A program made the translations under genes and the position numbers. Positions 7,891-48,383 of a stretch of DNA of 64,000 nt are shown here, in pieces. Numbering within the stretch: the stretch's first letter is position 1; every line of letters starts with the position of its first letter. Source of the stretch: an uncultured bacterium (GTDB taxonomy: Bacteria; Patescibacteriota; Minisyncoccia; Phycocordibacterales; Phycocordibacteraceae); NCBI GenBank assembly GCA_947085505.1, contig CAMTWI010000002.1, forward strand, positions 8,681-72,680, written 5' to 3'. The notes under the pieces were generated by a model that did no database searches, had not been told where the DNA came from, and saw only the letters and a program-made list of their open reading frames with translations.

Positions 7891-10800
7891 CTAGGGGGCA
7901 GGGACTGGTGCTGGTGGCTCAGGCTCAGGCGTTGTTTCAGGAGCAGGTTCAGGTGTTGGCTCTGGTTCAACAGGAGTCTCGCCTGGTGTTGGTTCTTCCG
8001 CGGCAGGTGTTGGCTCAGGTGCCAGTGTAGGTGCCGGAGCTACAGGATCAGGCTGTGTACGATCTATTACCTGGCACTCCCCTTCGCGAATTATCTGTGC
8101 ACCATTGCGGATAGAGAGACAGTACGGCTCTCCGGTAACTTCGTCATAGAACGTAATACCGGTTGGCTTCTCCCTGCTTCCAACCGTGAGGCGATCAACA
8201 ACTAGTTCAACGGCAGCAAGCATACCGTTACGAATGCTGAATTTGTTGAGGATCTCGGTGAACGCTGCGAAGTCTGGGAATGGTTGAGCCTCAGGACGCG
8301 CTGCAAGGATCGCAAGCTGTTCTTCGATAGAGGAGAGGCGCTCCATGATAAGGTCGGTGCGACGAAGCGATTCTTCTCCAGCACGAATGGCAAAGCTCGC
8401 CATCTTGTACAGGTCAGCCTTGCCACCTGTGTAGACTTCTTCAGACAAGGTCTCCGTTGTTTGTGCAAGGAACGATTCTGCGGTCACTGAGCCTGTCGAA
8501 AGGATACTCGCCGCAGTAAGGGCGTCACTGAGTGTTACTGCACCAGAAACAGTGAGCTTCCCGGCAACCGCAGCGTCACTCGACACTTTAAGAGAGTATG
8601 CTAGAGCATTCTCTGCTACTGGCGCAAGAGCGAGTGTACGGGTGTCGAGCTCCTTGATAGCGTTCACGGATGCAGCAAGGATGGCCGTGGTGCTGATCTG
8701 CTTGTAGCCGTTCGCTCCTTCGTTCATCGCCTCAGGGATGTTCGCGCCTACGTTCTGAGCGATGAATCCAGAGTACTGAATGCCGCCGTCAAAGTATGGG
8801 GTGCCCTCCTTCCAAATGTAGGTCTGAGGATTGATACCGCGAAGTCCACTGAGTCCTGTGGTGAAAGCGCCTTGGGTGTTCTTGAGGTTCTCGTCCGAGG
8901 TACAGCTCATGAGACCTGAACCGTTGGTCTGGACACCGGCACAGGAGACGAGGTTTGCGACTGAGATGTTACCATCAGCAGCAACGCGCATACGTTCCGC
9001 GTTGTTGGTTATGACAGACAAGTTGGTGTTGCTTACTGTACCAAAAGAACTCGTACTTCCACCGCTATACAGCGTTAAGTGTCTCGTTCCATTGGTGAGC
9101 AAGTCTATAACACCACCATTTGTGGCGTGATTAATCGCCAACGTTGTGTAGCCAGAATACGCAGCAGGACTTGCAGTGCCAATACCAACGTTACCCGAAG
9201 CACCCAAGAATATTGCGTCTGCATTACTTGTATTGCCGATACTTAGGCTACCACTGCCAGTTGTGATACCAATGTAACCGTTACCATTCGATGAGGCCTC
9301 GAGACGAAGTTTATTGGTGTCGTTGTAGTTAGCATAGATGCCCGCACTGCTTGCCGTACGCTTCACCTCAAGCGCACTGCCTGGATTCGTCGTGCCGATA
9401 CCGACGTTTCCAGAAGAAGGCGGCATGATAATGAGGTTGTTTGATGACGTAGTGAACAGTTTTGTTGCCTGTGTCTGATTATCAAGATTAGTAGAATCAA
9501 AATTGTTTCCAACAAAGAGCGGTCCGTTGTTAACTCTCTTCAGAGTCACATGATCCATTTGTGTTACGGCGTCACTTGACGCAGTGTAGTTCATGAGTAC
9601 GAGCACCCGAACATACTTCGTACCAACCGGGAAATTAGGAAAGCTTGTTCCTTCGCCATGGGTGGTTGCCGAGTACTTATGCCACTGACCGTCAGCAGGT
9701 AATGTCATCCCTGCCGCGGCAAAGTAACAGTACGTGCCGCACGGTGCCGAAGTAATAGCAACCTTGTTAGCATCGTAGGCGATGTACCCGAAATAAATGA
9801 TTCCAGGACTTGCGCCCGCAACACTCTTCTTAAACCATCCTTCGAGCTGTAGTACATCGGTCACAGGGTTAACCGGGATATAGTCAGCACTTTCTACCTG
9901 TGAGTAACCTGTTGTTTGTGATGTGTAGTTCCCTGAATACCCGCCCGTTGTAACCGTAGTTAGTCCGGTCCACCCAGTAGTGCTATTGGTTTCAAAGTCT
10001 CCGTTCACGAGCAGATTGTCATTCGTGATGTCGTGGTATCCATTGATGTTAATCGCAGTGTTTGTGTATACCGTACGGAACCGGTTATCTGCACTACCCA
10101 AGTCATACGTATTATTTGTCTCAGGTCCAACATTCCCGGCAACTTGGAGTTTAAATACTGCAGGGTTTGTGGTGCCAATACCAATCCTGCCATCAGCCAG
10201 CACTGTCAGATGCGGAACGAATGTGGTTGAGCCGTTAAGGCTACTGTCGCTTGCGCTACCGATCTGATATTTGCGACCAGGATCACCAGTAAAACCAAAC
10301 GATACAACGTGATGTGGGTAACTGTTAATAAGATAAGAACCTTCAATCACATCATTATGAAGAAAGCCCGTATAATTCAGCGCAGTTGCGGAACCTGAGC
10401 CGCGTACCTTCATAAAGCCGCCACTAGAACCGAGATCGAGCCTAGCCTTTGGTTCTGAAGTACCAATACCAACATTACCTGATGTATCAAAAGTCATACG
10501 TACCGTTCCATTTGAAGCGAGCTGCAGTGCTGTTGCGTTTGATGAACCTAGTAGCGAGGAATAGGCTAGACTTCCAGCGAATATCTGTCCCGCGCTTGAT
10601 CCTTCAACTCCCCACCAGAGAGACCCGGTGGTATTTGATATAGACGCGTAATTGAATCCTGTCGTTGAGCCGCCTATATCAAGCGAGCGCGTGGGTGTAG
10701 CTGCAGCATTCGCTATGGTTAGTTTGTGTGTGGGATTCGTAGTGCCGATACCGACGTTGCCGTTTGAGTTAAGAATCGTCATCCTATCTGAGAATGAGAT

Positions 10801-13800
10801 TGTATTTCCTGCGCTTCCAGCTACAGCAGTCCTGAATTTTATGTTTCCACCAGCAAAATCCATAGCTGCAGCCGTATCGTTCCTGTCGTACAGATAGCTA
10901 TCGCCTGTTGAGGTAAAGCGGATGCCGTCTCCAATCAGCGGGTATCCAGACCCTGAACTACCAAGAGTAGCCAAACCTATCCTAGCGCCTCCCCAGCCAG
11001 CGCTAGGGGCACTCACTTGAAGATTGTAGTTGGCAGTATCCGTGGTACCAATACTCACGTTGCCGTTAGAGGCAAACGTGGTCGATGTGGTTGTGCCACC
11101 AACCTTAATAGTTAAAGCGCCATTTCCACCAACAATCTGTGATTGCCAGCCTTGGTCAACGAAGTCGATTGTGTTGGTTGTACCGACGCTATTATACAGA
11201 CGCAACTTATCAGTAGAGTCGCTTTCGATGCGCAGACGATACGAGCCAGGATCAGCCGTACCAATACCGACATTACCTGCATTTGTTATCTTCAATCGAG
11301 TTGTAGGTAGGTAATTAACTCCAACTGTTAATCCAGTGTCGGTGAGCAATTCTATTGATCCATCCTGTTTTAATTGAATACCTGAAGCCGAAGCTTGTGA
11401 CGGCGTATAATAATGGCTTGTGGCATAGAATGCATTATTGTAAACATATGAGCCCACAGAACTTTCTACGCTTCCTAAATTCAGAGTTTGAGAGCCAGTA
11501 GCACCTCCTTGAAGAGCCATTTGCCTGTAGCCAGAATTTACTACTGAAAGTGATGTTGCGGGAGTCGTCGTACCAATACCGACGTTGCCGCTGGCGTTTA
11601 AGAGTAGTCCCGGATTACCTCCTACCGCTAATACAGCCCCAGCATGGCCCCTTAATACTGCATATTGCTCATTATTATCCGGAGCAAACAATAAAGCGCT
11701 TCCGCTACCAAGGTAAAGCGGAGTACTCGGATTGCCAAATGCTAGATAGCTAGCGGATGTCGAAAGCTTTATGTTTCCAGAAACCTCTAGCTTTTCCCCG
11801 GGACTCGCAGTACCAATACCGACGTTGCCTCCATTCGGATTAAGTGCCAGATTACCAACGGTCGTACCTCCAACCGTGAGGTTCTCAATTATTCCATATG
11901 TATCTCCGCTCGTGGCCCCATGGCGAAGACGAATTGCTGAACCCGCAGAACCTGCAGAATATGTATTCGTAGTTACATTCAAACCACCCAGAGACACGTC
12001 ACCGGTAACTTGCAATGGGACTGAAGGGTTTGTCGTACCAATACCAATATTCCCTGAGTTCGCTACATACAGTGCATTATTTACCCCACCCGTTGAGATA
12101 CTGAGGACTCCAGATGCGGGGCTCTCTATCCTTGAGAAGTTGCTGTTGTCAGCATTATAGAACCTGAACGAACCACCATTGAGTACGGAACCGTTGCCAG
12201 CAATACTAAATGTGGTGAGAGGGTTCGTCGTCCCAATACCAACAGTTCCTTCTCCACCAGAATTGAGGGTTATGGGAGCACCCTGAAGACGGAGCTCCGT
12301 GAATGAGGAAGCGCTACGGTTTATCGCTATTATCCGGCCAGCACCTGAGCCAGAAGGATCGTAAGCGACCTCTAAGCCCGTACCTGAAGACGGGATGGTG
12401 TAGTTGAGGAAACGTGCTGCGCCATTCACATCCAATCTCGTCTCAGGGGTGGTTGTACCAATACCAACGTTACCTGTTTCGGTAATACTCATACGCTCAA
12501 GAAGACTGCCCGACTGCGCCCGCGTACTGAAATGAAGTGTTCCGTCTTCTGAGCTAGCTCCTCGCTTAAATGCGATCTTAGCGGCGAGCTGTGACGGCGT
12601 ATACCCATTTACGAAACCAATGTAGTTCGTCTCTCCATATGCAGCACCATCCTTTCCGTAGAAGATAAGATTGTTATTGTTGAGGAAATTAGTATCACCG
12701 ATGTGTACATCACCTCCCATGACCGTAAGTCTCGCTGTTGGTGTTATTGTGCCAATACCGACGTTGCCACCAAAGTATGACTGTGCTGTTCCACCAGAAT
12801 AAATGGCCCAGGTATTCGAAGCAGCGTTCATTCCAATCTGAACACCCATGTTGTACGTTGCGTTACTGCCTCCAAAATAACCACCGACGCTATAGTCACC
12901 GGCACCAATTGCAGTTGCGTAGACACCGAAGTTGCTACTAGTAGCTCTATAGTTATTGAACCGTCCAGCGATTTGAGTGGAACCGTCATCAACCGTGAAC
13001 TTGTAGCCAGGATTCGTGTTACCAATACCGACGTTGCCACTATTGTCTACGACAAAAGCTTTATTCGTGAAGATAGACCCCCCTGCGACTGTTGACGGAG
13101 TAATTTCGAAAAGGTTTGCAGAACTCTGACCAATACGGAAGTTCACCCCACCTGAGTATCCAAGGAAGTCCATGTACGCCCCATTATTATTCGACGCGTC
13201 ACCGAGACGAATATTTCCACCCACAACATGGAGCCTTTCAGCAGGGGTTGTAGTACCAATACCGACATTACCACCACTCGGATTAAGGAGAAGAGATTTC
13301 ACACCCACACCTGCCTGGGAGGACTGGAGGTAACTTGCGTCTATAGCTGAATCATAGCCAACGAAGAGTGACTTAGTAGGTGTTGTTGCATTACTTACCA
13401 TAAGTCCTGCACCGACGTCACTTGAGTATGTAGCGTTGTGTGCAACCTGCAGTTTCGCATTCGGGGTGGTTGTACCAATACCGACGTTGCCTGCATTAGT
13501 AATTGTAAGACGGTTAGTACCTGCCGTTTGAAGATTTATACCGTACCCCTCATTGTTTAGGGTCGTAAATCCTGTTGATCCATCATAGAGCTGAAGAGTG
13601 CTAAATGAGGCTGAAGTACCGCCTCCCGCATACCCAAGACCAGAGCCAATTAATGACGTTGGTGAGATACCGATACTGCCCATAACATCGAGCTTGCTAG
13701 TTGGGGTGGTCGTACCAATACCGACGTTACCACCCAAGAAATTGAACCTCGTTGATACGAATTCGAGAGGGATGTTCTCACTTACCGCGTCATTGAATGC

Positions 13801-16800
13801 TTCGATGCGAGCTCCCGAAGTTGCATCAGATCTCAATGAAATATTTTGATCAGTATTAACACGAACCTGAAGCGCACCTGAGTATGCTACCGGCACTGCC
13901 CCGATACCAACCTGGCCATTAGTATTAACAAGAAGAACGCGCTGATTCGTGCTCGTCGCTATCTGGAATAGATTCTGTCCTGTTGTACCGTTCACAACCA
14001 AGTTGGCAGCTGGAGTGGTGGTACCAATTCCCACGTTACCCGTAGAGGTGATGATCATGCGCTCATTAGCTGCAGCGACACCTCCTGTAAAGAAACGGAG
14101 ATTTGCTGCTGCATTCACTGCTGCGAGATCAAGACCCCCAGAACTACTGCCCCAGACGTAATTCCTGTTTGCAACATCAGCACCGCCTGACCCAACATAG
14201 TTCGCTCCCGTAGCACCAAGCCAGGTGTTTCCCGCGCTTGTCTTTACCGAGTATTCTGCGTATGCTCCCGAGCCTGTATTTTCGTTTGTGAGCAATGCTT
14301 GAGCGATGCCGTTGTTATTCTTATCTATATGGAGGGCACCAAGCGGGGTGCTGGTACCAACACCAACGTTGCCGTTTGAAGAAAGGAACAGGTGCGGAGC
14401 GCTGTCATACAGTGAGAAGGCTACTCCACCTGCAGTACTTCCTCCCTGACGGAATCGAAGCACGTTTGAAACTCCTTCATAGAGAGCATCGTGTCGGAGA
14501 TCAAGTCCATAGAGCATATTCGAAGTACCGCCATAGAATGCATGAACGCCTCTCGTAATTACGTTACCAGCAACATCGAGAGTCGACTGTGGCGTAGAGG
14601 TACCAATACCGACATTATTTCCGAGCGGATTAAGTGCTAGCGGCCGTGAGCCAAAACTCTGTAACTGTGCAAAAGTGCTTTCCTGACTAAGCACAACTGA
14701 CGCACCAATGGGACTCGTGTACGCTCCTGAAACTTCCAGCGCTCCCCCACTTACATGAAGTTTGTTGTTAGGCGCTGTAATGCCAATACCGACGTTGCCA
14801 CTCGTATCAATCGTAAGACGAGTTGCACCTCCTGTCTCAAACGCAAGATTGTTGCTGTCGTTGGTACCAAGTACCGCTGTTGCACCAAAGGAGTTCCCTC
14901 CTTGGCGGAAGAAGGTATCGTCCAGTGTATTGAGATCTGCCAAAAGTGTATTGGCACTCCAGGAGAGTCCAGAGCCAGCCGTAATACGAGTAGAAGGAGT
15001 GTCGTAGAAGGTGTTCCAGTTGGTAGTGGAGGCCGTAAGGGGGATGGTGTAGCCAGCGGTGAGGCTGAAGGCGCCCGTACCAGAAGTGTACGTGAGACCC
15101 GTTGCACTTGAGGAGAAGAGACCGCGGGCGGTTGTAGCGAAGTCTGAGATGGTATTCGCGAGTTGGGTACCTGAATGGTTGTCGCGGCTCTGGTACCAGG
15201 TGCCTTCTTGGCCGTCGAAGGTGCCGGTCCACGCACCGGTGCGGTCTAGCGTGAGAGCGCCTGCGGTATTGAGGAGTCCTGAGCCAAGAAGTGAGGTGAA
15301 GGTGTTGCTGCCAAGGCCGAAGTTTGTGGTTGTTGCGTTGGTTGCGATAAGGTCGCCGAAGGTCTGCAGCGGACCCCACGTGTTTGCGGTTGTGGTACCA
15401 AACGCAAGAGAGATGGCGTTTGTGGAGCGTACGAGCGGATAGTCAAAAGTGAGGGGGTTTTCGTAATCGATACCGGCAGTTGCTGCAGAGAGAACACCGG
15501 AGGTTGCTTTAACTAATCCGTTTGAAAGACCAGAGAACGTGATGGTGCCAGCAGACGTTAGGGACGAAAGCGTACCAACGCTCGTAAGTGAAGACGCAAG
15601 GATGTTAGAGGCGAGTGTTACTCCGGTTAGGGTGCCCGCAGGAGCGATAACCGGTACGGTGCCGGCTGCCGTAACAAGACCCTTGCCGTTAACGGTGAAC
15701 GTTGGAATGGCTGTCGAGGAACCGAACGAGCCGGTGTTTGCGTTAACGGTTGCAAGTGTTGCGGAAGCAGAACCAGGACCTGAGGCGGTTATGTCTCCGG
15801 TGAGGGCGGTTATGTAATTCCCTGCTGCTTGGTAGTCGGTACCGGCAACCGCTGACGTAACAACACCTGCCGTTGCCTTCAGAAGTCCGGTGAGTGAGGC
15901 AACGCGGGTCTCTCCTGAGATGTAGAGGTTGGTGGTTGTTGCGTTGGTTGCAACAAGGTCGCCGAAGGTTTGGAGCGGACCCCACGTGTTTGCGGTTGTG
16001 GTACCGAAGGCTAGAGAGAGGACGTTGGACGAGAACTGGAGCGGATACGATACGGACGCTATGCGCGAGGTGTACGCAGTATTCCATTCAGTTGTTGAAG
16101 CCGTTAACGGGATGGTGTATCCAGCAGTAAGGCTGAGAGCGCCGGTGCCTGAGGTGTATGTGAGCCCGGTTGCGGAACTAGAGAAGAGACCGCGAGCGCT
16201 TGCAGCGAAGTCTGAGATGGTTGAGGCGAGCTGGGTGCCGGTGTGGTTTGCGCGGGCGAGGTAGTATGTGCCTTCCTGTCCGTCGAACAAGCCTGTCCAG
16301 TTGCCGGTTACGTCTTGGACATAGTCGGTCCCCGCAAGCGCAGCAACAATAGTCCCTGCTGCGTTTGTTTTGAGGAGCGAGGACGCAATGCTTGAGATTG
16401 CGAAGTTTGTGGTTGTTGCGTTGCTGGCAGTTAGGTTCGCGAAGATGCTCGTTCCGGTGAAGGTTGGTGATGCATTGAATACCAGCGAACCAGTGCCAGT
16501 CTCGTCCGTAACAATGGCTGCGAGCTCGCTTGAAGTATCTATAGATGCATTCGTGAGATAGCCGGCTGATGCATGGTTGCCCCAATCAAAGGCGGTGTTC
16601 CAGTTTGTTGTTGAGGCCGTTAACGGGATGGTGTAGCCAGCAGTAAGGCTGAGGGCGCCGGTGCCTGAGGTGTATGTGAGGCCGGTTGCGGAACTTGAGA
16701 AGAGGCCGCGAGCTGTTGTGGTGAAGTCTGAAATGGTTGAAGCAAGTTGTGTGCCGGTGTGGTTTGCGCGGGCGAGGTATGCAGATCCTTCGATGCCGTC

Positions 16801-18861: not shown

Positions 18862-18997
18862 GAAAGAGCGTGGAATATCTATATATTATCTAGAGATTCC
18901 ATTCACTCCTACACTATGACTGTTGACAAGAAACTCACTCGATAAGCAGTCAAACTTCCGCGAGTTGCTTCACTCACACTCTCTTCTCAAGCAGGTC

Positions 18998-19037
18998 TCT
19001 TGCACAGAATGGTCCCACACAAACAAGTAGTGCAAGA
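18998..19037. promoter_or_regulatory. inverted repeat TCTTGCAC-N24-GTGCAAGA upstream of giant gene 1
   Basis: Perfect 8-bp arms at 18998-19005 and 19030-19037. A related TCTTGC/GCAAGA repeat lies upstream of giant gene 2. Confidence 0.3.
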
Positions 19038-19364
19038 AGCAATCAATCGTGCCGTCACGCCTTAATTATTGGCACCAATGACTCTCTAGTCTGCCGAATT
19101 AGAACAAACACACATAGACACAGGATGTTGGATTTATTAGACATATCGCCTGCTATGTCTCGTATTGTTGAGCTGAAGGCATTAAAAGCTGCTCCTATGT
19201 ACCTAAAATCCCTCTTTGCTGTGGCAATGGTGATCTATTTACCTGTGATATACACTGTTTAACTTTGGAAAGGCCGCATATTAGCCCGGCAACACCTTGT
19301 TTAGAGGACTATTCAGTACACATTTCATGACAAATTAAGCTAAAAACTCGGCTATCCGAGATGG

Positions 19365-19389
19365 AAAAGCTTTTATATAAAAGGCTTTT
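19365..19389 (-). terminator. AT-rich hairpin just downstream of giant gene 2 (possible terminator)
   Basis: aaaagctttta-tat-aaaaggctttt, 5 nt after the stop codon. The stem is AU-rich, so it is weak. Confidence 0.3.
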
Positions 19390-19393
19390 GCGT

Positions 19394-22300
19394 TTATGGG
19401 GCGGGTGCAGGCTCAGGAGTTGATGTTGGCTCTGGTGCAGGTGCAGCTACTGCCTTTACAGACACAATTCTGGATACGTGTGCCTGGTTCCCTGCTGCAT
19501 CTGATACCGAATATGTGACTGTATACGTGCCTGGTGTGCTCGTATCAACTGTCCCTTGCACTTGTATAGAGGCTGTAAGGTCTCCGTCGGTCTCATCTGA
19601 TGCTGTAGCGCCCAGATCGATCCATGTAGCACCCTGGTCAATTTCGCGGGCTGCAGGGCCGTTTAGGGTTATTGAAGGCGGTGTGGTGTCTCCAGAGCTC
19701 ACAACAGGGGTAGTGGTACTCGTTCCCTCGCCCGGGAAGACTGGCGGAAGTGGCTCAGTTGACGGGCTTGGTGTCGGTTCGCTCTGTGTTTGTGTTTTGC
19801 CAGCAGCGCCTGGGGATGCAAGCTGTCCTTCGGTCTGGAGTATGAAGTAGTCGAAGGAGACGTCTGCTGATTGACCTTGCGCAAGCGTTACGCGGAACTT
19901 CCCGGCTTCCTTATTGCTTAGGTACCAGGCGCCCTGTATAGGGCCCGTGAAGGTAACGAAGATCTTTGAGGTTGGGAGCACATATGGGTTTTGAACTTCA
20001 ACAACGGTGTTCCCTGCAAGTATGGTCTGGCTACCTGCAGATGAGTCACCATTGGTGTCTTTAGCAACCGCAAGTTGGCGGAATACCAAGGTCTCAAACT
20101 GCGCGATACCATTCTCAAGATAGATACCGAGAGTTTGAAGCATGCTCTTGAGTGTTGCAAGCGTAAGGCCAACCGCTCCTGAGACTTGTTCAGTAGCTGA
20201 GCTTGCCTCAAGTAGAGCGAGACGAGTCTCAACCTCATCGATACGTACGGCAAGAAGATCTGTTCGCTCGGACAGTGCCTGCATGCTCGTTATGGCGTAA
20301 CTCGCCATCTTAAAGAGGTCTGCACTGCCATTTGTAAGAACCTCACTTGGGAGAGTTACTGCACTGTTAGTGAGGAATGCTACTGCAGTTACAGAGCCTT
20401 GTGTAAAGACACTCGCTGCCGTGAGAGAGTTGCTAAAGGTTCCGATGCCGGTAACCGTGAGTTTTCCGGCAATACTTGCATCAGTTGATACCGCAAGCGA
20501 ATGCGCTGCCTGGTTTTGTGCTGCTGGTGCGAGAGCGAGTGTACGGATGTCGAGCTCCTTGATAGCGTTCACGGACGCAGCGAGAATAGCCGTTGTACTG
20601 ATTTGTTTTATGCCATTTACACCTTCGTTCATTGCCTCTGGAATGTTTGCGCCTACGTTCTGAGCGATGAATCCAGAGTACTGAATGCCGCCATCGAAGT
20701 AGTCGGTGCCCTCCTTCCAGGTGTAGGTCTGAGGATTGATACCGCGAAGTCCACTGAGTCCTGTTGTAAACACACCTTGTATATCCTTGAGGTTCTCGTC
20801 CGACGCACAACTAATGACACCAGAACCATTTGTTTGGAGACCAGTACAGGAAACTGTTCCTGGGAGCGCAACACTTCCGCCATCCGGGTTGAGCAGAAGA
20901 GTTGCTGAGCTCCCGTATGCATTTGTATATGCCTGGATTCTGCCCTGAGTTGCATCTGCTCCGACCGTAGTTATCGCGCCACTTGCACCGAACTGGAAGG
21001 AACTGACGAGGTTGGTTGATCCATCATTAACCACGGTAAGTCTGCGCGATGCGTCTGCGGTTCCGATACCGACGTTGCCACCATTAAGAATCACCATATT
21101 TGCAGTACTGAGAGCCGCATTGAGAAACACTGCTCCAGCTGTGTTGTACCCGAAACCTCCACGACTAACAGTTGAACCCGTGAAGAACCGCACATACGAA
21201 GCATTGGCATCAGAAGTTGCCACATACACAGGAAGAGTGTCGGAGCCTAAGACATGTAATCTTGCACCTGGAGATGCCGTACCAATACCGACGTTGCCAC
21301 TAGCATTACCTCCAGTAATAGTCATCTTTACAGCACCATTAGTAACGAAATTTATGTTTCCATAGGGACCAGATGCATCCGTGAAATTATTGACGATATT
21401 TGTATCGACAAAAGTTCCATAAGTGAACGGGCCCGTGCCGCCGCTGTTCGTTTGGATATCTGTGGAATAACCATCTGAAGTCAGTCTAATTGATGCGCTA
21501 CCTCCCCCATTAGTTGTTGCCTTGGTGAATGAGCCAACAATCGTGTTTGTTCCTACAGCGCCCGTCACGTTTACAACCTCCAACCTATGAGTTGGATTTG
21601 TGGTACCGATACCAACGTTACCATCCCTATCTATGAATATCCTGTCTTGAAGCACGTCGGAACTATCTGCAGTCTGCAACTTCATCCATCCTCCTAAAAA
21701 GTTCCCGGTACGATCTTGCACACTAATGGCGCCCTTTACCACATCACCATAGCCAAGGAAATTAAGTGTTGCCGGCAGAGGAGAGGCATTGGATCCAGCA
21801 TTTCCAGCTGTGGAAATAGCGATAACTCCTCCTGTTGTTTTTCCAACCTCGAGTTGGTATGCAGGATCTGTCATACCAATACCTACGTTGCCAGTGCCAG
21901 CAATAAACATTGCCGTTGAACCACCCGGACGGAAGCCGATAGTGGAACCGTCGAAGTTCAGAGACGCATAAGCACCACCTGTGCGGTTGTATGCTTGAGC
22001 CACAATGCCCGAACCAGGGACAATCTCAAAACCCGCATTACCGGCCTGTGTGCCGCCAACAGCAAGTTGAGCAAGTGGGTTTGTAGTACCGATACCGACG
22101 TTACCGTTCTCAAGTATCGTCATCCGGTTACTCCTATTTGAGGTCTGGAAGGTGATCTTGCCGGTATAACTGCTGAGCACAAGCCCCCCAGTTGAGGCCG
22201 GCACCGCCTCAAGCACTGTGGAATTCGCCCAGTTACTAATACTGTGACCCGTTGAACCCATAACAAAAAGCGAAACGTACGACGAGTTACTTGCGTTAGT

Positions 22301-25300
22301 AACGTTAATACCATCTCCATCCCCTGTATTGACTACTACGGTAAGCTTGCTGCCGGGATTTGTCTCACCGATACCGACCCTACCACCATAAGGCTGCAGA
22401 GTGATGTTGCCGCTATTAGAGGAGCCGGACTCGTGTGTCTGGAGTGTAAATGTTCGATTCGCTTGACTGGCAGCACCTATACCGCGAATCTTGAGACCGA
22501 ACCAACCTGAACCATCATTGGAGCTAATCTCGAGTCCGGCACGCTCTGTCGTGTCTGTTTTTGCAAACGGATAAACAACATGGAGAGGGGCAGTCGGACT
22601 TACCGTTCCAATACCTACATTACTGCTGTTGGTTATAAAGAATGCAGATGAACCTCCACCCGGGTTAAAAGCAAACGTAGATGCTTGTATGGCAAGAGGA
22701 TCCCAGGCAACTCCCGGACGAATAGAACTTATGTATGCACTTCCTGCCGTTCCCTTAGAGAACGCCAGGCCGTCTGAAGTGGTGGGACCAAAGACTGTGT
22801 GTCGTGCATCAAATGCAGATATCGAATTAGGCGCAGTCTCTGCTGTAGTTAATACATGGAGTTTGCCCAGAGGTGCGGTGCTGCCAATACCGACGTTGCC
22901 ATCAACATATAATCTTCCGAAAACTCGAGCATAGCCGTTGGTGAATCCACCAGCTGCTATCTCCATAAGGTCACCAGCTCCCGCAGAGTTGAATATCCAT
23001 TTCTCTATACTTCCCCCTCCAGATGTACGGAAGAAGAATTTAGTTGTGCCTTCGGTATTTGAGTTATATGTACTGTTACCTCCTGCATAGAGATTGAACG
23101 TAGTTGCTGCATTGTCGCTAAAACTAAGACCGCGACGTTTTGTTGCAGACATATCAACAGAATCGATATACGCATCGCCCGTACCACTTAAGCGGATGTT
23201 TCCATTAGCTACTTCGAGCTTAGCGCCTGGATTTACTGTGCCGATACCAACGAAGCCTCCTGTAGTGATACGCATTCTTTCGGTCGGTGTCCCTGATACA
23301 TCAACAATAAAGGCAAGTGCGTTGCTGTTATTTGCAGCTGACCCCATTCCAACCTGCCAACTATTACCAGATGCATTGAAGACGATACCTGCAGTGGCAG
23401 ACGAACCAGCATCTTCATTCCTCATCCATAATCGCAGAGGGCCATTTGTGTTTTGGAGAATGGTAAGTTTTCCAAAACCAGTGTCGCTGGTACCAATACC
23501 GACGTTGCCCGTACTACTAATTGTCAGGTGAGTCGTTCCCCCAGCACCGCCAAGAGCAAGATTTGAACCCTCGATACGCAGTCCTGCGAGAGATCCTGCA
23601 TCATTAAGACCGGCAAGTGTCGTCTGGCCGCCGTTGTTGTACATAGCAACATGCTGATTTGTGGCCAGCTTCACACCAAACTTAATCACAGTACTTATGG
23701 CAGAACCGGCACCGACAGTGACATTGCCGTTGTCTTGGATAGTGAAGAGCGGACTGTTCGAGGAATTAGCTGTCTGAAAATTGATGCCAGTACCTGTTCC
23801 TCCTCCAGTCACGGAGAGCTTACCCACGGGTGTTGTTGTACCAATACCGACGTTCCCTGCAGCGCTGAGCGTAAAACCAACCTGTCCCTGATCGTAAATT
23901 AGCTGCGTAATACCACCAGCGGTATCAGAACCCGCACCAATTCGCATGGTCTTCGTAGACTGTTGATACTGAATTAATCCACCTATGTTATCAGCGGGGC
24001 TCCCAAATTGGATCTTGCTTAGACTTCCGTTAGGAACCAGTATCGATATACCGTTGGAACCATTACCCTCGAATACTCCGAGATTGGCATTACCGTGTGC
24101 CGTAACAGTTCCTGCCGTCCCTCCTAGAACATGGAATTTTCCTTCGGGCTCTGTAGTACCGATACCGACGTTACCATTTGAAAGCAAACTAAGCGGCGTA
24201 CCGAAAGTAGAAGCACCCGTGTCTAACAGACGGAAATCCAGCCGTGTGCTTGCCTGAATGCCAGTTGTTGTCTTTGCAATCCGCAGTTCTGCAACGCTCG
24301 GGTATACGTCCCCGGTTACACCAGGACGGACAAGAGTTAGGACATTTTCTGCGGCATTTGGTGCTGTTCCAGAGTTTGTCGCATTAACGGTTGGCGAAAC
24401 GAACACCGCTGCTCCGGCACGTGTATAGGCGTCGTATGCAGGAACCACACCACTTACCACTTCTAACTTAAGCCCTGGCGAGAGACTGCCAATACCGAGA
24501 TTTCCATTGGTATCCAATGTCATCTTCGGTGTATTGGTAATGGTGCCTTGAATGAACTGTAGGTTTGATCCCCCTGAGTAATCACCAATCATCCATTTTG
24601 GTGTACTTGCTGCACGCAGCTGCAGACCATAAAAACCTGTTGTTGCAGAATCAGCAACAAAGTACGCTCCTGCGACAGATGCACTTACCTTAATCACGGC
24701 GTCACTCCCAGTTTTACCGACATGAAGCAACTCATCGGGTCCTGTTGTACCAATACCGACCCTGCCCGAAGAAGTTAAGAATATTGCATCTGCGTTATTA
24801 GTATTGCCGATACTTAAGCTGCCACTGCCAGTTGTGATACCGAAATAACTGTTACCGTTTGATGCAGCCTCGAAGCGAATTTTATTAGTGTCGTTGTAGT
24901 TAGCATAGATACCTGCATTACTTGCCGTACGCTTCACCTCAAGCGCACTACCTGGGTCTGTTGTACCAATACCAACATTGCCCCCACTAAGAATCGTTAT
25001 CCTCTGATTTGCGTAAGTACCAACATAGTAGCTAGAGAGTGTATTGTTGTCGCCAAATGCCTGGAATCCACCTAATGCCGCTCCTGCATTACCTTCGAAA
25101 TTATAGCCGTACGCCCAGCCTCCCGTATCTCCAGCAAGTGCAACGCCATAAGGAGAATTATTACCGTACACCCTGAAACCTCGAGCGGCAGCACTTCCAA
25201 CCTGCAGAAGAGCGCCCGGGCTTGTGGTGCCAATACCAACATTACCCTCACCCGTAACAGCAACCCGAACTGTGCCTGGACTCGTACCACTTGAGATCAT

Positions 25301-28300
25301 CAAAGGAAAATCGGTTGAGGCGACTCCCTCACTATGTAGGCGCAATCCATATGCGCCACCTGCTGCTGCGCGGTTGCTAATAACTGCTGCCCAGTCATTT
25401 TGGGTGGTGCTCCAATAAAATGCGTCTGTCGCGGCACCCGAGGGTGCAGTACCGGAAACGTTTGTGAGGAGATAGCTTGGACTAGTGGTGCCAATACCAA
25501 CGTTCCCTCCCATGAACGTGAACGCTCCACCTGTGTTGAGACTGAGATTGCTCCCAACTTTTGCAACGTAATACGCATTATCAACTCCATAGTTAAAGCT
25601 CATCAAATTGCCCGAGGCGACATACACACCCCCACTTTCGACCGCCAAGTGGCCACCGGTAACGGTAAGCTTGTGCGCTGGTGTGGCAGTTCCAATACCA
25701 ACATTACCAGTTTGGGTAATGCGCATCTTTTCCGTTAGGCCTCCACCATAGGTATAGAACGCCAAGTGATAGTTATCCGGACCTACGATTAGATTACTAA
25801 TCTTTCCCGTAAGGAGACTGTTTGTGCTGTGGGCATTAAATCCAAGACTTACTGAGGTACCTGTTGTGTTAGCTGAGTTACTTAGATAGAGAGGTATGGA
25901 TTCTGCACCATCATTGAGCGTGGAAGCATGGAGTCTTCCTGCTGGATTTGTCGTGCCAACACCGACATTGCCAGCAAAATACGCACTACCATCTCTACCG
26001 ATGGCAGCAACGTCCCCGGCGAATGCGGTATTGAATATGAGTGGATCGCTCAACGAACCGAGACCTGCAGCCATATAAAGTCGCGTGTAGTCTGTATCGT
26101 TTGAACGAGTGATTTGCAGACCTTGTGCTGAAGTGTCGCTACCCTGAAGGATTTCTAGTTTTGCATCGGGAGTAGTGTCACCAAGACCGACGTTTCCTGC
26201 AGCATTTACGAATATTCCCTCGCTACCTCCATCTCCAGAGAGCCAGTTTCCATTCAACTGAATGTTCTGTGTAGCGATGTGGTTTCCGAGGTTATCACCT
26301 GTTGCAGATGCAAGACCACAATCTCCTGAAGATACACGAAGTACACCATTTAGATCTGCGTACACGCAGCGATTACCTGAACCAGCAAGATTTGAGGAAA
26401 GAATATTTCCGGTTACGGAGAGCTTCTCTGCAGCCGATGTGCCACCGATACTGACGTTACCTGCAGGTGTGATTACCAGACGCTGTGTCCCAGCAAGCGT
26501 GATTTCAAAACCGCCATTGTCTGCACCCGTGATGAAGGGGTTCAGGGCGACAGCATTCCCTCCAGAGAAGGTCGTCGTGAGTCGGAGGGCGTCTGCACCA
26601 CCGATCGTTCTCTCGATAATAAGATTAGGCGTAACACTACCAGCATCAGCGACGGTTAATTTTCCGGTTGGTGCGCTGTTCCCAATACCGACGTTACCCG
26701 AAGACAATATGTGGATTGCGCTAGTTCCAGCCCCGCCGCCAATAGTTGCTCCGACATTAATCTCAAATCCCCCCGTAGTAATGAACTGAGTTCTTGGCAC
26801 TGCCGCTCCCTGCGTTGCGACAAGAAGAAATCCTTCTGTTGCACTATTTTCCATCTGAATTGCTCCTGTTGTAGAGCCAGAATATGGCCTCCAGTCTGTT
26901 GGGCTGGCAACAGAGCCGAGATTAATGTGTCTACCAATAGACGTTCCAACGCCACCAACAGTATTGACGATCATTCCACCACCGCTCACGTGAAGCCTGG
27001 ACCCAGGAGCGGTAGTACCAATACCCACGTTACCGTTCGGATAACTGATATGAAAACGTACCTTTGCAGCGTCCCCAGCCTCAAGAATCTGGAAATGATC
27101 TCCTGCGGCTCGAAGTTCGTAGTTATAGTTTGTTGAAGAACGTAGTATTAAACTTCGATCGGCACCATTCGTAGTTTCTATATTCCCAGCAACAGTAAGT
27201 CTTGAAGGTGCGTTTGCAGTACCAATACCCACGTTACCGTCTTGGAGCACCGTTAGTGCAGCAATCGGATTGGCTGCGTTGTAAACATCGATGTTAAAGG
27301 AGTTGTCGGTACCGGCACGCATTCCCCACCACCCGTTCACATCAAAGAACGCAGTTGTGGCTCCCAGTGCGGCTGCAGAGCGAGTCGCCGAACCACCTTG
27401 AATAGGTCCAAGGACCGAGAGCACTGGATTGGTATTAACTCCGAGACCCACATAGATTGGATTCGTGTTACCAATACCGACGTTGCCGTTATCACGGAAT
27501 GTCACGTACTCCGTTGTTCCAGAGCCCCCACCCCAGAAATGAAGTCCGGTATTAGCAGATACGATGTAATTCTCATCTGCTATTGTCCCGCCCGTACCAT
27601 CTCCCACGAACATACGGAACCGCTGTGCCGCAGGGCTCGCTGTCCTATCGAGCGTAAGGCTAGTATTGTTTCCGCCTATAATATGCATCCTTGCTAATGG
27701 GCTTGTGGTATTTATACCGACATAACCAGTTGTATCGATTGTGAAAGGATACGTATCACCCGTGTCATTTAAAGCGATGCTTCGTACGCGAAATTGATTA
27801 CTACTGTTGAAGTCAACATAGTTTGGACCTGTCGTTCTCTGGAGGCGAAGGCGCGCATCGTTTCCAGTAATCAATACGCCACCAAATACATCTAATTTAT
27901 CGGCTGGCGTTGTTGTACCAATACCGACGTTGCCTGAAGAATTTATCGTAAGTACCGCTGCTGCAAGTGAGTCCTTATAGATTTGGAAATTGTCCGTATT
28001 GTTGTTTGTACTTACATCACTACCGATACGCCAGCCAGTACCTCCGTTATCTGTAAAGAGGAGTTGGGCATTCTTCGTTGTCCCTGATGTGTTCTGTATC
28101 TGGGCTTGTGCTACGCCGTTTGTTGCAACATGCAGTTTCGTGGTTGGTCCTGTTGTACCAATACCGACGTTGCCTGTAGCACGCTGGAAGTACATCACAT
28201 CGCTGTCGACACTCGACAATCGCCGTTTCAAAAACAGGTCGCCTGTGGTCAACTCGTCCTGCATGAGTTTCCAACCGAAGGTGCCATTGCCACCCGTTAC

Positions 28301-31300
28301 CCCTGTTTGCAGAATTATATTGTTAGCTACGCCTGCAAGCTCCGCATATATCGCTGGAGTGGACGCGCTTCCAACAACCTGTAACTTTCCAAGAGAAGGT
28401 GTTGCTGTACCAATACCAACGTTGCCCGCAGAGGTGATGGTGAGAGAGGTAGCAGCGTTACCAAGACCAGCAGCTCCGTAATCGTTGGTGAGGTATAGGT
28501 TTGAATCATTTGGCTTGCTTCCAAGTATCACTGACGCGACACCGGCTTGATGTAACAGGAGTGAAGCCGTGGTACCTGTTGGTTCTGCACCATAGAACGT
28601 CGCCCCACCTACGTTGAAGCCCTGGAAGGTGCCCGCACGGATACGGCCATTTACATTGAGTCTTTCGTCGCCCACAAAGACCGTGGTGCCAATGCCGATA
28701 TTGCCTGCGCTGTTTATATACAATGCGGACGTAAAGGTGCGAGAACCTGAACCAGCAGATGCCTGCACATAGTTCAGGGAACCGCTTGCTCCAAGAATAA
28801 GCGCGGAACCTGTTTGTGCTGTGTTATCAAGTGTTCCCGCTGTAGCTGAGGTAAGAAGTGCGTTATTGGAAAGCACTGGGGTGTCACCTGAATACTGAAC
28901 GCCAAACCGGTGCTTCATTCCTGACCAACCGGACGGCTCAAGAATGTAATTAAGTGTTGAGCCTGTTGCTCCTGCAACATGCAGCAAACTTGAAGGAGAG
29001 GTGGTGCCAATACCGACGTTTCCTGAACCAAGAATCGTCACTTGAGCAACGTTGTTTGTGCCAAACGTTAAGGGGCCATTCTGAACGTTAACAATATGGG
29101 CACCATTCACCGCATGGTATCCACTAGGGGTTATTCCAGAACCGTTGAAGCCGACAACAAGACCGTATCCTGTAGTATTCGTTATGTTGAGCTGGTTCAT
29201 AACGGTGCTTCCTGAACCTATATTTGAATTGAACTCCGCGGTGTTCCCACGAATTCCGCCGTTACCTACAATATTCAAAGGAGATGAGGGGGATGTTGTA
29301 CCAATACCGACATTACCTAATGAATTTATAATCATCCGATCTCCACCGCTTGTAGAGAACAAGTACTCGCCACCGGCCGAACCTATGGCGAACTTAAATC
29401 TGTTACCGTTTACGGCATCGGAATTCGTTTCAGACGTGATATCAAGGTTGTAGTTATTATTGCCAACGAGCCTCTGAATCACACTTGATAGAGTGCTGTT
29501 AACCACTTCTAACTTCGCTCCTGGATTCGTAGTACCAATACCGATATTTCCTGATGTATCGATGGTCATGCGCGTAGCATTGTTGGTCTCAAACGCGAGG
29601 TTGTTACTGTCGTTAGTACCAAGCACCGCAGTTGCACCAAACGAGTTCCCTCCTTGGCGGAAGAAGTCAGTAGCGAGATCGCTGTAGTTAACTGTGAGGG
29701 CGCCACCAATATTTGAGAGGCCGGTACCAAGAAGACTTGTGAAGAGGTTGCTGTTGAGGGTGAAGTTCGTGGTTGTGAAATTTGTTGTTGTCGCGCTCGT
29801 GAAGACACTATTCGCAGAGAAGACCGGCATATTGAACTCGAAGCGGTCCAGGGTGCTGTTCCAGGTCAAGAGCGCGTGTGGCGAAGCACTTCCACGATTG
29901 AAGATAAGGGTACTGTCTTCAGTGTCTGCGGTTGCGTTGTCTGCGTTTAGCGTGAACGAGCTTGAGACTGTGCCTGCAATTGAGGTTGAAGCAGCTGAGA
30001 GATTGTTAACCGTGAGCTCGTCTATATACCCGCGGCGCCAATAGCTTCCTGTTGATCCAAAGTCGTAGGTGTTGTTCGTGGTTGGAATCAGGCTTGAGCT
30101 AATCGTGCTGTTAACCGTAAGGAGATCAGCGGCACTGGTTCCCAACGTTGTGTTTCTGCCAACCGCGATGTTCCCTGAGAACGCAGAGGTAGCGGTTGTT
30201 GAAGTGGCGAGAATGTACGGGCCTGCGACGTACTGACCGCCCTCGATAAAGGTTGCTTGAATACCACCTCCAAACGTGGACGTAGCGCCGTTACTTGCGA
30301 TGGTGGTTGGCTGCGAGCTTCCAATCACGATTGTTGAAGGGAGCGACAGCGTTACACCCCCTATGCCGTTATCCGTTACCGTGAGCTGATTCAACGTTCC
30401 GGTAACCCATGAGGAGAGACTAGTTGAGGTTGCAACCCCATTTGCACCTACTGACAGGAGTCGGGACGGGGTGACATAGGTGAGAGCGAATGCGTTCGTT
30501 GAGGTTGCGTTGGTAAGCGTTGAGTTCGTTGCCGTGAGGTTTGTGATAATTGCGGTCGTTATGTTCGCAAGCGGTGAGGTAAGCGCATCAATGACGGCGG
30601 TCGTGAACCGTGCACCCGTGGCAAAGAGATTTGTTGATGTTGCGTTTGTAGCTGTAAGGTTGGTTGCAAAGAGATTCGTTGATGTAGCATTTGTCGATGT
30701 CGCGTTCGTAAATACCGCGTCAGTAGCCGTAAGGTTCGCAATCACTGCCGTTGTGATGTTCGCAAGTGTCGCCGTGAGGTTTGTGAAGAATCCGTCAAAG
30801 ATGGTGGCTAGTGTTGCGTAGAACGTTGTTGACGTTGCGTTCGTAATTGTCGCGTTCGTCCCAAGAAGATTCTCAACAGTGCCGTTCGTCGTGAACAGGT
30901 TAGTCGAAGTTGCATTCGTACTGGTTGCGTTTGTGAACACCGCGTCAGTTGCCGTGAGGTTTGTGATAACCGCATTCGTAATGGTTGCAAGTGTCGCCGT
31001 GAGGTTTGTGAAGAATCCGTCGACAACACTCGCAACTGCCGCATAGAAGTTTGTCGTGGTTGCGTTTGTAATTGTCGCGTTCTCGCCGAGAAGGTTGGTG
31101 AAGGATGCGTTCGTAGCAAAAAGATTTGTTGACGTTGCGTTCGTGCTCGTTGAGCTTGTTGAGACAATGCCATTCGCTACGATATCTCCGTTAACAGTTA
31201 GCGAACCTGTGATAGTCGTAGATGCGACATTGAGAGAAGAGCCGGTAATCGATCCCCCAGTGAAAGTTGAGTTGGTAATCGCACCGTCCTCAAATGTTGA

Positions 31301-44982: not shown

Positions 44983-45093
44983 AGTATGGCCAGTATACTA
45001 CCCGCCGGGCAGGGTACCAGAATCTGCGACCTTAGAGGCTACCTGGTACGTTATAGACAATACGGCACCTATTGGTGCTACGATTCATCTCAT

Positions 45094-47504: not shown

Positions 47505-47510
47505 ATGCCA

Positions 47511-48377: not shown

Positions 48378-48383
48378 GGAAGC

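What the first reader, a model, noticed from the sequence alone, without database searches (positions are those of the whole stretch)
9142..29668. Module-boundary motif is conserved at the nucleotide level, including synonymous positions, across about 55 modules in both genes
The GNVGIGT motif is nearly always encoded by the same codons. The plus strand shows gtaccaataccgacgttgcc exactly at 11570-11589, 11810-11829, 13472-13491, 21279-21298, 23490-23509 and on the lines starting 27911 and 28151. Most other modules differ at 1-3 positions. The sequence between motifs is highly diverged.

Protein-level selection alone would not fix the third codon positions. Identical 17-20-nt microhomologies at every module boundary, in two adjacent same-orientation paralogs, form an ideal substrate for recombination. 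Such recombination could add, delete or swap modules, giving fibre-length or antigenic variation.
Basis: partly seen in the sequence, partly recalled or inferred. Interest (0 to 1): 0.6.

Follow-up and report, generated by a model that had tools for sequence, protein, structure and literature searches.

The report
Recombination joints in giant fibre genes
Each of the ~58 modules in two giant surface-fibre genes of a tiny uncultured (Patescibacteria) bacterium starts with a short DNA stretch kept alike even at silent codon positions, and relatives show whole modules swapped, added or lost exactly at these stretches.

Summary
The 20-mer occurs exactly at the 7 listed sites and 40 times with up to 3 mismatches (0.01 expected). 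All copies lie on one strand, inside two minus-strand giant genes: A (7891-18861) and B (19394-33181).

Silent positions of motif codons 1-6 are far more uniform than background codon usage predicts: V3 GTC 61% vs 17%, G4 GGT 96% vs 35% (p down to 5e-21). Dipeptide context does not explain this. Equally conserved neighbouring codons (T7, P10, L14, V16) show no such bias. Flanks are diverged (about 30% nt identity).

The genes encode membrane-anchored, S74-chaperone trimeric fibres, like phage tail fibres and Bdellovibrio MAT fibres. The motif appears to be their beta-helix "capping loop".

The silent-site effect is family-wide, seen in 240 viral and bacterial loci. Variants are fixed within a lineage and differ between lineages, which is a concerted-evolution signature.

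Recombination junctions sit at the motif in three settings:
- the A/B shared blocks;
- the B ortholog, whose homology ends at the first motif (lengths 4595, 4480 and 3484 aa);
- natural alleles of homologs that swap cassettes.

"Identical microhomology at every boundary" is overstated: only 7% of module pairs share 17 nt or more. Why the silent sites are held, by conversion or by selection, is unresolved. This is a new variant of the known motif-mediated shuffling of fibre genes.

The parts
7891..18861 (-). Gene A, 3656-aa giant fibre protein. Order: N-terminal HTH_17-like domain, one hydrophobic anchor, an 80-aa-type repeat region, the GNVGIGT module array, the S74 chaperone, and a Pro/Glu-rich tail.
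   Evidence: ORF; translation; Pfam
19394..33181 (-). Gene B, 4595-aa paralog in the same orientation. Order: HTH_17-like domain, anchor, unique N-terminal region, the GNVGIGT module array, the S74 chaperone, and a bacterial surface Ig-like domain.
   Evidence: The ortholog in L245 is called as 4480 aa with S74 and Ig-like domains.
9175..14799 (-). Module array of A: 23 motif instances spaced 17-260 aa apart (typically 62-111 aa).
21059..29551 (-). Module array of B: 35 motif instances (32 by the stricter pattern), typically 67-116 aa apart.
11570..11589 (-). One of the 7 exact copies of the 20-mer. The others start at 11810, 13472, 21279, 23490, 27915 and 28155.
9175..9411 (-). Module of A (aa 3151-3229) shared with B. 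It is 82.6% nt identical over 236 nt, and similarity starts and stops at motif copies.
24746..24982 (-). The matching module of B (aa 2734-2812). It sits at a different array position from the A copy.
14776..14916 (-). Pre-array block of A (aa 1316-1362), shared with B at 79% nt identity. It ends at the first motif.
29528..29668 (-). Pre-array block of B (aa 1172-1218), ending at B's first motif. This is also where homology to the L245 ortholog collapses.
8725..8898 (-). Peptidase_S74 intramolecular-chaperone domain of A (aa 3322-3379), with the SDENLK catalytic motif.
20630..20803 (-). Peptidase_S74 domain of B (aa 4127-4184), with the SDENLK catalytic motif.
19457..19672 (-). Bact_surface_Ig-like domain at the C-terminus of B (aa 4504-4575).
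   Evidence: E=1e-22

Best explanation
What it is (shown). The 20-mer encodes the glycine-rich turn GNVGIGT(T)xPxxxL that opens every 65-115-aa module of two giant surface fibres. Both fibres are anchored by an N-terminal transmembrane segment and end in an S74 self-cleaving chaperone. They belong to the phage-tail-fibre / Bdellovibrio MAT kind, and sit on the chromosome of a Paceibacterota (Patescibacteria) bacterium. The amino-acid motif fixes 14 of 21 bases. It is therefore the only place where otherwise unrelated modules share sequence.

How it most likely works (inferred). Ectopic exchange starts and ends in these stretches. The exchange could be short-patch gene conversion, template switching or short-homology crossover. 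It could act between modules, between genes A and B, and between alleles in the population. This has two consequences.

1. The silent positions of the motif are homogenised within a lineage. This is concerted evolution confined to about 15-20 nt, strongest at the centre (V3-G4-I5) and fading to nothing by T7.
2. Module cassettes are replaced, duplicated or deleted in frame with junctions at the motif. This changes fibre length and surface specificity.

A family-wide pull towards GGC-AAC-GTC and a local GC3 spike is layered on top. I attribute it tentatively to biased conversion, or to selection for a stable joint. This step is not resolved.
For: Identity of the proteins:
- Peptidase_S74 scores above the curated cut-off in both genes, and B has an Ig-like domain.
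- SDENLK is present in both.
- PDB sequence hits to Bdellovibrio MAT fibres: 8OND at E=5.6e-10, also 8OJN and 8OML, aligned across the motif.
- PMC10769870 describes a recurring capping-loop motif, V-G-G/N-pi-x-x-P-x-x-x-L, on the edges of a trimeric beta-helix.
- Cultured-phage tail fibres match at 27-40% identity.
- The context is chromosomal and housekeeping (SecA, MurB, GatB, Obg), with no integrase. SecA hits are named Paceibacterota/Patescibacteria.

Silent-site constraint:
- The bias is sharp and bell-shaped over codons 1-6, and absent or marginal at the conserved T7, T8, P10, L14 and V16.
- Dipeptide context does not explain it.
- There are no recently duplicated modules.
- The codon uniformity raises the share of module pairs with >=14-nt and >=17-nt exact matches 10-fold and 19-fold over a synonymous-redraw null.

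Concerted-evolution signature:
- The same effect appears in many unrelated loci, each with its own variant. L125 uses GGC AAC GTC GGC ATC GGG ACG in 6/6 copies. L110 uses GTT GGT ATA GGA ACA. L100 matches the window.
- After correcting for each locus's codon usage and a common shift, C-versus-T choice is strongly heterogeneous among loci: G4 p=2e-14, I5 2e-12, N2 2e-9, V3 1e-7, T7 not significant.
- Relatives of this genome keep G4 as GGT against their own GGC-rich background, although their arrays are non-homologous.
- A and B use the same variant.

Junctions at the motif:
- the A/B shared module and the pre-array block;
- window B against the L245 ortholog;
- P0100/P0159;
- P0060/P0078/P0035, with variable segments of about 190-230 aa (P0060, P0078) versus 567 aa (P0035), carrying 1-8 motifs.
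At least 10 junctions all fall in or next to a motif.

The family-wide GC3 spike is confined to motif codons 1-7.
Against: - Adjacent silent sites in the 38 strict copies show no linkage, so no shared haplotypes. Conversion tracts spanning the whole motif would tend to create such linkage. Power is limited.
- The same codons (G1 GGC, V3 GTC) are favoured across phyla and viruses whatever the host codon usage. Neutral within-lineage homogenisation does not predict this.
- In the window, G4-G6 prefer T-ending codons, opposite to the family GC3 trend.
- Most pairs of modules share fewer than 14 identical bases. That is below the length usually needed for RecA-dependent exchange (established knowledge), so the enzymology is unclear.
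- Most 90%-identity clusters of homologs are length-invariant.
- No population data were available for this genome.
Confidence: 0.6

Rival explanations
1. Direct translational selection. The invariant Gly, Asn, Val and Ile residues of a structurally critical turn are encoded by particular codons. These are mainly NNY codons, read by G34 tRNAs. The selected benefit would be accuracy, speed or co-translational folding. On this view recombination at the motif is a by-product.
For: - R-ending codons are strongly avoided in the motif. In the window, GGY is 98% at G4, GTY 88% at V3 and ATY 98% at I5, against 61%, 54% and 76% in the fibres' non-motif codons.
- GGA, GTA and ATA are avoided family-wide, with z from -3 to -7.
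- Silent sites behave independently of one another, as site-wise selection predicts.
Against: - The choice between C and T, which are read by the same tRNA, alternates by position: V3 is C, G4 is T 51:1, I5 is T. It also differs between lineages irrespective of their codon usage.
- The same codons are favoured where they are the rarest (L020 and L040: GTC 0-5% and ATC 4-5% of background) and where they are common (GC-rich loci). Neither rarity (pausing) nor optimality is therefore what is conserved.
- The conserved T7, P10, L14 and V16 show little or no bias.
- Housekeeping genes of the window show no NNY preference for Gly (50% GGY).
Confidence: 0.2
2. The stretch is a sequence-specific nucleic-acid signal. 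It could be a site for a recombinase or a DNA- or RNA-binding factor, for example the excisionase-type HTH at the N-terminus of these same proteins. It could instead be an RNA element.
For: - A family-wide 'master' sequence, GGCAACGTCGGYATCGGGACG, is favoured independently of host composition.
- A, B and the next gene upstream of B (33798-34703) all carry HTH_17-like N-termini.
Against: - Lineages fix different variants.
- All 40 copies are in direct orientation.
- No recombinase, integrase or reverse transcriptase was found among the window's large ORFs.
- There is no consistent RNA fold (z about 0) and no Rfam family.
- The motif occurs in phages and in many bacterial phyla that share no obvious dedicated factor.
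- The HTH_17 hits are below Pfam's cut-off.
Confidence: 0.07
3. It is an ordinary consequence of codon bias, codon-pair bias, chance, or recently duplicated modules.
For: Codon-pair effects outside motifs point the same way, but weakly. Observed/expected is 1.1-1.2 for GGC before Asn, GTC before Gly and GGT before Ile.
Against: - Background usage is nearly even.
- Observed/expected in the motif is about 2-3.6, with p down to 5e-21.
- Context controls are negative.
- Flanks and neighbouring conserved codons are randomised.
- 0.01 matches are expected by chance.
Confidence: 0.02

Closest known systems
Conserved-motif recombination in T-even phage tail-fibre adhesins: His boxes of gp37 and glycine-rich motifs (GRMs) of gp38. 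Sources: Tetart et al. 1996/1998 as cited in Trojet et al. 2011, PMC3157838.
   Same: Short, conserved, glycine-rich motifs separate hypervariable segments of a receptor-binding fibre. [quoted passage not shown]
   Different: Here the motif is different (GNVGIGT) and recurs about 58 times in two chromosomal genes of a bacterium, not a phage. The exchanged units are whole 65-115-aa beta-helix modules. Silent-site uniformity is measured and shown to be family-wide and lineage-specific. No experimental crosses exist.
Bdellovibrio bacteriovorus mosaic adhesive trimer (MAT) fibres: Bd2133, Bd3182, Bd1334. Source: Caulton et al. 2024, PMC10769870.
   Same: Direct sequence similarity to solved MAT fibres (8OND at E=5.6e-10). 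Both have the S74 chaperone with SDxxxK, a recurring capping-loop motif on a trimeric beta-helix, and chimeric tips.
   Different: MATs are about 1000 aa, with a signal peptide and a conserved beta-rich N-domain. A and B are 3656 and 4595 aa, with a cytoplasmic HTH-like domain and a membrane anchor. The paper does not discuss nucleotide-level conservation or recombination at the motif.
S74-chaperone phage fibres and spikes (T5 L-shaped tail fibre pb1, K1F endosialidase) and annotated tail fibres of Synechococcus, Thermus and Roseobacter phages.
   Same: Peptidase_S74 C-terminal domain and GNVGIGT-type modules. tblastn hits to tail-fibre genes are at 27-40% identity. The motif is abundant in IMG/VR contigs.
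   Different: The genes here are cellular, not viral. They are far longer and sit among housekeeping genes with no phage genes nearby.
Concerted evolution of repeats in bacterial surface proteins: tandem repeats kept identical by unequal crossover or gene conversion. Named from established knowledge, not tested against a specific family.
   Same: Repeat copies are more alike within a genome than between genomes. Copy number differs among relatives.
   Different: In classic cases the whole repeat unit is homogenised. Here only about 15-20 nt at each boundary is, while the remaining 200-330 nt of each module is saturated with change.

Membership tests
S74-chaperone trimeric fibre (phage tail-fibre / MAT superfamily) | C-terminal Peptidase_S74 intramolecular chaperone domain | tested here: met
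   PF13884: A scores 25.4 bits and B 29.4 bits, against a cut-off of 22.
S74-chaperone trimeric fibre (phage tail-fibre / MAT superfamily) | Catalytic SDxxxK motif | tested here: met
   SDENLK is present in both translations. The motif definition comes from PMC10769870.
S74-chaperone trimeric fibre (phage tail-fibre / MAT superfamily) | Recurring capping-loop motif (V-G-G/N-pi-x-x-P-x-x-x-L) in a beta-helical shaft | tested here: inconclusive
   The module consensus is GNVGIGTTxPxxxLxV. This fits the published consensus in its P-x-x-x-L and G-pi-x-x-P parts, but has one extra residue (Ile) compared with the consensus as printed in the text. The three-dimensional position was not modelled.
S74-chaperone trimeric fibre (phage tail-fibre / MAT superfamily) | Sequence similarity to solved members | tested here: met
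   8OND (Bd2133) at E=5.6e-10; 8OJN and 8OML at about 1e-3.
S74-chaperone trimeric fibre (phage tail-fibre / MAT superfamily) | Homotrimer formation and autoproteolytic release of the chaperone | not testable with these tools
   Needs protein expression.
Bdellovibrio MAT family in the strict sense | Signal peptide followed by a conserved ~130-aa beta-rich domain | tested here: not met
   The N-termini are HTH_17-like (below the Pfam cut-off) followed by a hydrophobic segment about 100-145 aa in. The ~130-aa domain itself was not searched for.
Motif-mediated shuffling of fibre/adhesin genes (T-even His-box / GRM model) | Short conserved motifs separating highly variable segments | tested here: met
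Motif-mediated shuffling of fibre/adhesin genes (T-even His-box / GRM model) | Exchange junctions of natural variants lie in or next to the motifs | tested here: met
   A/B blocks; B against the L245 ortholog; homolog alleles P0100/P0159 and P0035/P0060/P0078.
Motif-mediated shuffling of fibre/adhesin genes (T-even His-box / GRM model) | Recombinants recovered experimentally with crossovers in the motif | not testable with these tools
   Needs genetic crosses or a reporter assay.
Concerted evolution by ectopic conversion | Copies more alike within a lineage than between lineages, beyond codon usage | tested here: met
   Residual heterogeneity is p=2e-14 at G4, 2e-12 at I5 and 1e-7 at V3.
Concerted evolution by ectopic conversion | Linked variants (shared tracts) among copies | tested here: not met
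   No significant association between any pair of silent sites within the motif (G1-T7) in 38 copies. The only nominal hit, G1 against codon 8 (p=0.024), does not survive correction for 28 tests. Power is low.
Shufflon-type site-specific inversion (Rci/sfx) | Inverted copies of the repeat and an adjacent tyrosine recombinase | tested here: not met
   All 40 copies are on one strand. No recombinase was found in the Pfam scans of the large ORFs.

The most novel reading that the evidence does not exclude
The 15-21-nt stretch may be under direct selection as a nucleic-acid 'shuffling joint'. On this reading, a GC-rich master sequence (about GGCAACGTCGGYATCGGGACG) is maintained across phages and many bacterial phyla regardless of host codon usage. 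It would be maintained because modules are exchanged through it within a shared, cross-phylum pool of fibre modules, or because biased gene conversion acts at a true recombination hotspot. If so, this would be a clean natural case of recombination shaping silent sites in prokaryotic coding DNA.
Probability: 0.15. Interest if true: 0.8.

Novelty: new variant of a known kind. Interest (0 to 1): 0.55.

Why it matters
Giant fibre adhesins are among the largest and fastest-changing genes of Patescibacteria, predatory bacteria and phages. How they diversify is poorly understood.

This locus and its relatives show that the conserved turn at each module boundary doubles as the joint at which modules are swapped, gained and lost. 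The joint also carries a measurable silent-site signature that can be scanned for in any genome.

Three uses follow:
- It marks module boundaries and likely recombination points.
- It suggests natural splice points for engineering fibres with new specificities.
- It offers a tractable test of whether recombination (conversion, possibly GC-biased) or selection holds silent sites in prokaryotes.

Tried and rejected
I used a fully degenerate DNA pattern instead, which avoids codon ascertainment bias.
- A literature search for 'GNVGIGT' returned nothing.
- Protein searches with the array and with B's N-terminus returned no close relative. The true ortholog (4480 aa, L245) surfaced only through SecA synteny.
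- The metagenome scan with B's C-terminus did not return the L245 contig, so the rest of that ortholog and any A ortholog could not be read.
- Length variation inside 90% clusters is mostly absent.
- The linkage test among silent sites gave no signal.
- RNA folding of four exact copies gave different folds with z about 0. The Rfam scan was empty.
- A search for one conserved module type (KLSVKGAGTTTG.NFQTTNS...) in fetched DNA found only 2 copies, about 73% identical at protein level. That is too few to test horizontal transfer.
- Rare-codon pausing and codon optimality were rejected, because the same codons are favoured whether rare or common locally.
- A shufflon-like mechanism was rejected: all copies are direct and there is no recombinase. 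The resemblance to sfx repeats was only a recollection and was not tested.
- Structure prediction was not run. A monomer model of a trimeric beta-helix was judged uninformative.

Full report
**1. What is there**

The window holds two adjacent minus-strand giant ORFs: A (7891-18861, 3656 aa) and B (19394-33181, 4595 aa). Both have the same layout:
- an excisionase-type HTH-like N-terminus, below Pfam's cut-off;
- a hydrophobic anchor;
- a long region in which GNVGIGT recurs every 65-115 aa;
- a C-terminal Peptidase_S74 chaperone domain, above Pfam's cut-off, with the SDENLK catalytic motif.

B also has a surface Ig-like domain.

The neighbours are housekeeping genes: split transketolase, GAPDH, GatB, Obg, SecA, MurB, Mur ligases and a polysaccharide cluster. 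None is a phage, integrase or recombinase gene. SecA hits at 75-98% identity are named Paceibacterota/Patescibacteria.

The nearest solved structures by sequence are the Bdellovibrio MAT fibres: 8OND at E=5.6e-10, plus 8OJN and 8OML. These alignments run across the motif. Caulton et al. 2024 (PMC10769870) describe these as trimeric beta-helix/beta-prism fibres. They report a recurring 'capping loop' motif, V-G-G/N-pi-x-x-P-x-x-x-L. The module consensus here, GNVGIGTTxPxxxLxV, fits that description apart from one residue. Annotated tail fibres of Synechococcus, Thermus and Roseobacter phages match at 27-40% identity.

**2.

The 20-mer is exact at the seven stated positions. It occurs 40 times with up to 3 mismatches, against 0.01 expected. 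All copies are on one strand and all lie inside A and B.

A loose protein pattern finds 58 motif instances, 23 in A and 35 in B. Between motifs the modules are about 17% identical per alignment column and about 30% identical in nucleotides. blastn aligns modules only over 29-58 nt around the motif.

**3. Codon bias does not explain it**

Background usage in this 51% GC window is nearly even. Motif codons compare with the non-motif codons of A and B as follows:

| Position | Codon | Count | Expected | p |
|---|---|---|---|---|
| G1 | GGC | 27/56 | 0.26 | 2e-4 |
| V3 | GTC | 30/49 | 0.17 | 3e-12 |
| G4 | GGT | 51/53 | 0.35 | 5e-21 |
| I5 | ATT | 40/54 | 0.40 | 4e-7 |
| G6 | GGT | 33/55 | 0.35 | 1.6e-4 |

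T7, L14 and V16 are also conserved residues, yet they use background codons. T8 and P10 deviate only marginally. The signal is therefore a bell centred on V3-G4-I5, about 15 nt wide.

Dipeptide and next-base context outside motifs do not reproduce it. Val before Gly is GTC in 16% of cases, and Gly before Ile is GGT in 42%. A and B use the same variant.

The uniformity multiplies the share of module pairs with an exact run of >=14, >=17 and >=20 nt by 10, 19 and 20 times over a synonymous-redraw null. The absolute shares are only 15%, 6.9% and 2.5%. 'Identical microhomology at every boundary' is therefore an overstatement.

**4. The effect belongs to the whole repeat family**

I scanned with a fully degenerate pattern, GGNAAYGTNGGNATHGGNACN7CC, which cannot favour any codon. 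It returned 120 viral loci and 120 loci from genomes of many phyla.

Each motif codon was normalised to the usage of its own ORF. Both sets show the same biases:
- G1 GGC: z=+11 (viral) and +8 (genomes).
- V3 GTC: z=+9 in both.
- GGA avoided at G4: z=-7 and -5.
- G6 GGG: z=+9.5 and +6.
- T7 ACG: z=+12 and +3.5.
- L14 and V16, scored only in the genome set: no bias.

Context controls outside motifs go the same way, but only at observed/expected of 1.1-1.2. The favoured codons are the same in AT-rich loci, where they are the rarest, and in GC-rich loci, where they are common. This excludes both rare-codon pausing and codon optimality. Overall there is a local GC3 spike confined to codons 1-7.

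**5. Fixed within a lineage, variable between lineages**

Loci with six or more copies often carry their own near-fixed variant:
- L125 uses GGC AAC GTC GGC ATC GGG ACG in 6/6 copies. Silent-site identity is 0.94 against 0.32 expected.
- L110 uses GTT GGT ATA GGA ACA.
- L051 and L064 use AT-rich versions.
- L100 uses the same version as the window.
- A few loci show no effect.

I allowed for each locus's own C:T usage and for a common family shift. The residual heterogeneity among loci is then p=2e-14 at G4, 2e-12 at I5, 2e-9 at N2 and 1e-7 at V3. It is not significant at T7.

Relatives of this genome (L247, L248, L249, L245) keep GGT at G4 against a GGC-rich background, even though their arrays are not homologous to B's. 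This is the classic signature of concerted evolution, here restricted to the module boundary.

Against simple whole-motif conversion tracts, adjacent silent sites show no linkage in 38 copies. The power of that test is limited.

**6. Recombination junctions sit at the motif**

(a) Inside the window. The single module shared by A (aa 3151-3229) and B (aa 2734-2812) is about 85-95% identical between two motif copies and random outside them. It lies at different array positions in the two genes. The pre-array block shared by A and B ends at the first motif.

(b) At this locus in relatives. A contig with 93% identical SecA keeps the synteny and carries a 4480-aa ortholog of B. Its N-terminal ~1100-1200 aa align colinearly with B's. 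At the nucleotide level, identity is about 75% up to the first motif and random from about 20 nt after it. A more distant relative has a 3484-aa ortholog with conserved ends and about half the number of motifs.

(c) In homologous fibre genes.
- Alleles P0100 and P0159 are 100% identical in DNA from one motif onwards and near-identical (mosaic) upstream. Between two consecutive motifs, one module is replaced by an unrelated one, 27 aa longer.
- Alleles P0035, P0060 and P0078 have identical flanks. Their variable segments are about 190-230 aa (P0060, P0078) versus 567 aa (P0035), carrying 1-8 motifs. Both junctions lie inside motif-coding DNA.

At least ten junctions all fall in or beside a motif. 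Most 90% clusters, however, have constant length. Turnover is therefore episodic rather than rapid.

**7. Mechanism**

My best reading (confidence about 0.6) is as follows. The structural motif creates the only shared sequence among diverged modules. Ectopic exchange uses it. The exchange homogenises the motif's silent sites within a lineage and reshuffles modules.

Shown:
- the silent-site constraint;
- its family-wide and lineage-specific pattern;
- the placement of junctions.

Inferred:
- that exchange causes the homogeneity;
- the type of exchange involved (short-patch conversion, template switching, or annealing by phage-type recombinases).

Unexplained: why G1 GGC and V3 GTC are favoured everywhere. 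Biased conversion, selection for a stable joint, or a shared module pool are candidates.

Rivals:
- Translational selection (0.2). It explains the avoidance of A/G-ending codons. It does not explain the position- and lineage-specific choice between C and T.
- A sequence-specific signal (0.07). There is no factor, no consistent RNA structure, no Rfam hit, and only direct repeats.
- Codon bias or chance (0.02). This is refuted.

**8. Relation to what is known**

Exchange within conserved motifs of phage adhesins is established for T-even His boxes and gp38 glycine-rich motifs (PMC3157838). The MAT paper establishes the fibre family and the loop. It is silent on nucleotide-level conservation.

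What is new here:
- the scale, about 58 joints in two chromosomal genes of a Patescibacteria bacterium;
- the quantified silent-site constraint;
- its family-wide extent with lineage-specific variants.

I therefore rate this as a new variant of a known kind.

Noticed in passing
window 14944-17790 (A aa 358-1306): The N-terminal half of A holds a different repeat family: units of about 80 aa containing TGLTYTSGTGALSLTAGYTIPLTASTT. Copies are 73-87% identical in DNA over 107-242 nt. These are therefore recently duplicated whole units, unlike the GNVGIGT array, where only the boundary is alike.
   Followed up: partly
window ~30480-31330 (B aa 617-900); L245 18209-22531: B has a low-complexity 'TNATSTNLF...' repeat region. 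The ortholog in L245 is about 90 aa shorter there. This is a second length polymorphism in the same gene, unrelated to the GNVGIGT motif.
   Followed up: partly
window 18694-18834, 33008-33154, 33798-34703: Three consecutive genes (A, B and a 301-aa protein) start with an excisionase-type HTH_17-like domain and also have a hydrophobic segment. A DNA-binding-type domain on membrane or surface proteins is odd. All three hits are below Pfam's cut-off.
   Followed up: no
window 44974-52560 vs L245 1-6185 and L246 1-6190: The polysaccharide-synthesis genes next to the conserved Wzy_C-MurB-SecA block differ completely in content among genomes whose SecA is 93-98% identical. This is a second hypervariable surface locus in the same neighbourhood.
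   Followed up: partly
window 9412-10190 (A aa 2891-3150): A 260-aa gap in the motif spacing of A holds a non-repeat insert (…LLVNGDFETNSTTGWTG…HVTLKRV). It reads like a carbohydrate-binding jelly-roll. No Pfam hit at E<=0.01.
   Followed up: no
window 23700-23857 (B aa 3109-3160); L245 ~21892; proteins P0124, P0120: One module type (KLSVKGAGTTTG.NFQTTNS..PLFTVLD.GNVGIGT) recurs at different array positions. It is in B, in the L245 ortholog, in a Campbellbacteria fibre (five copies) and in another metagenomic protein. This hints at mobile module types.
   Followed up: partly
window 55224-58212: A Lamin-tail-domain plus PKD protein overlaps the start of a TrwB/TraG-like coupling ATPase. This may be part of a secretion or DNA-transfer apparatus.
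   Followed up: no
Word-seeded protein searches with the repetitive fibre missed its true 4480-aa ortholog, which was found only by synteny. For such repeat proteins, 'no close homolog' from that tool is unreliable.
   Followed up: yes
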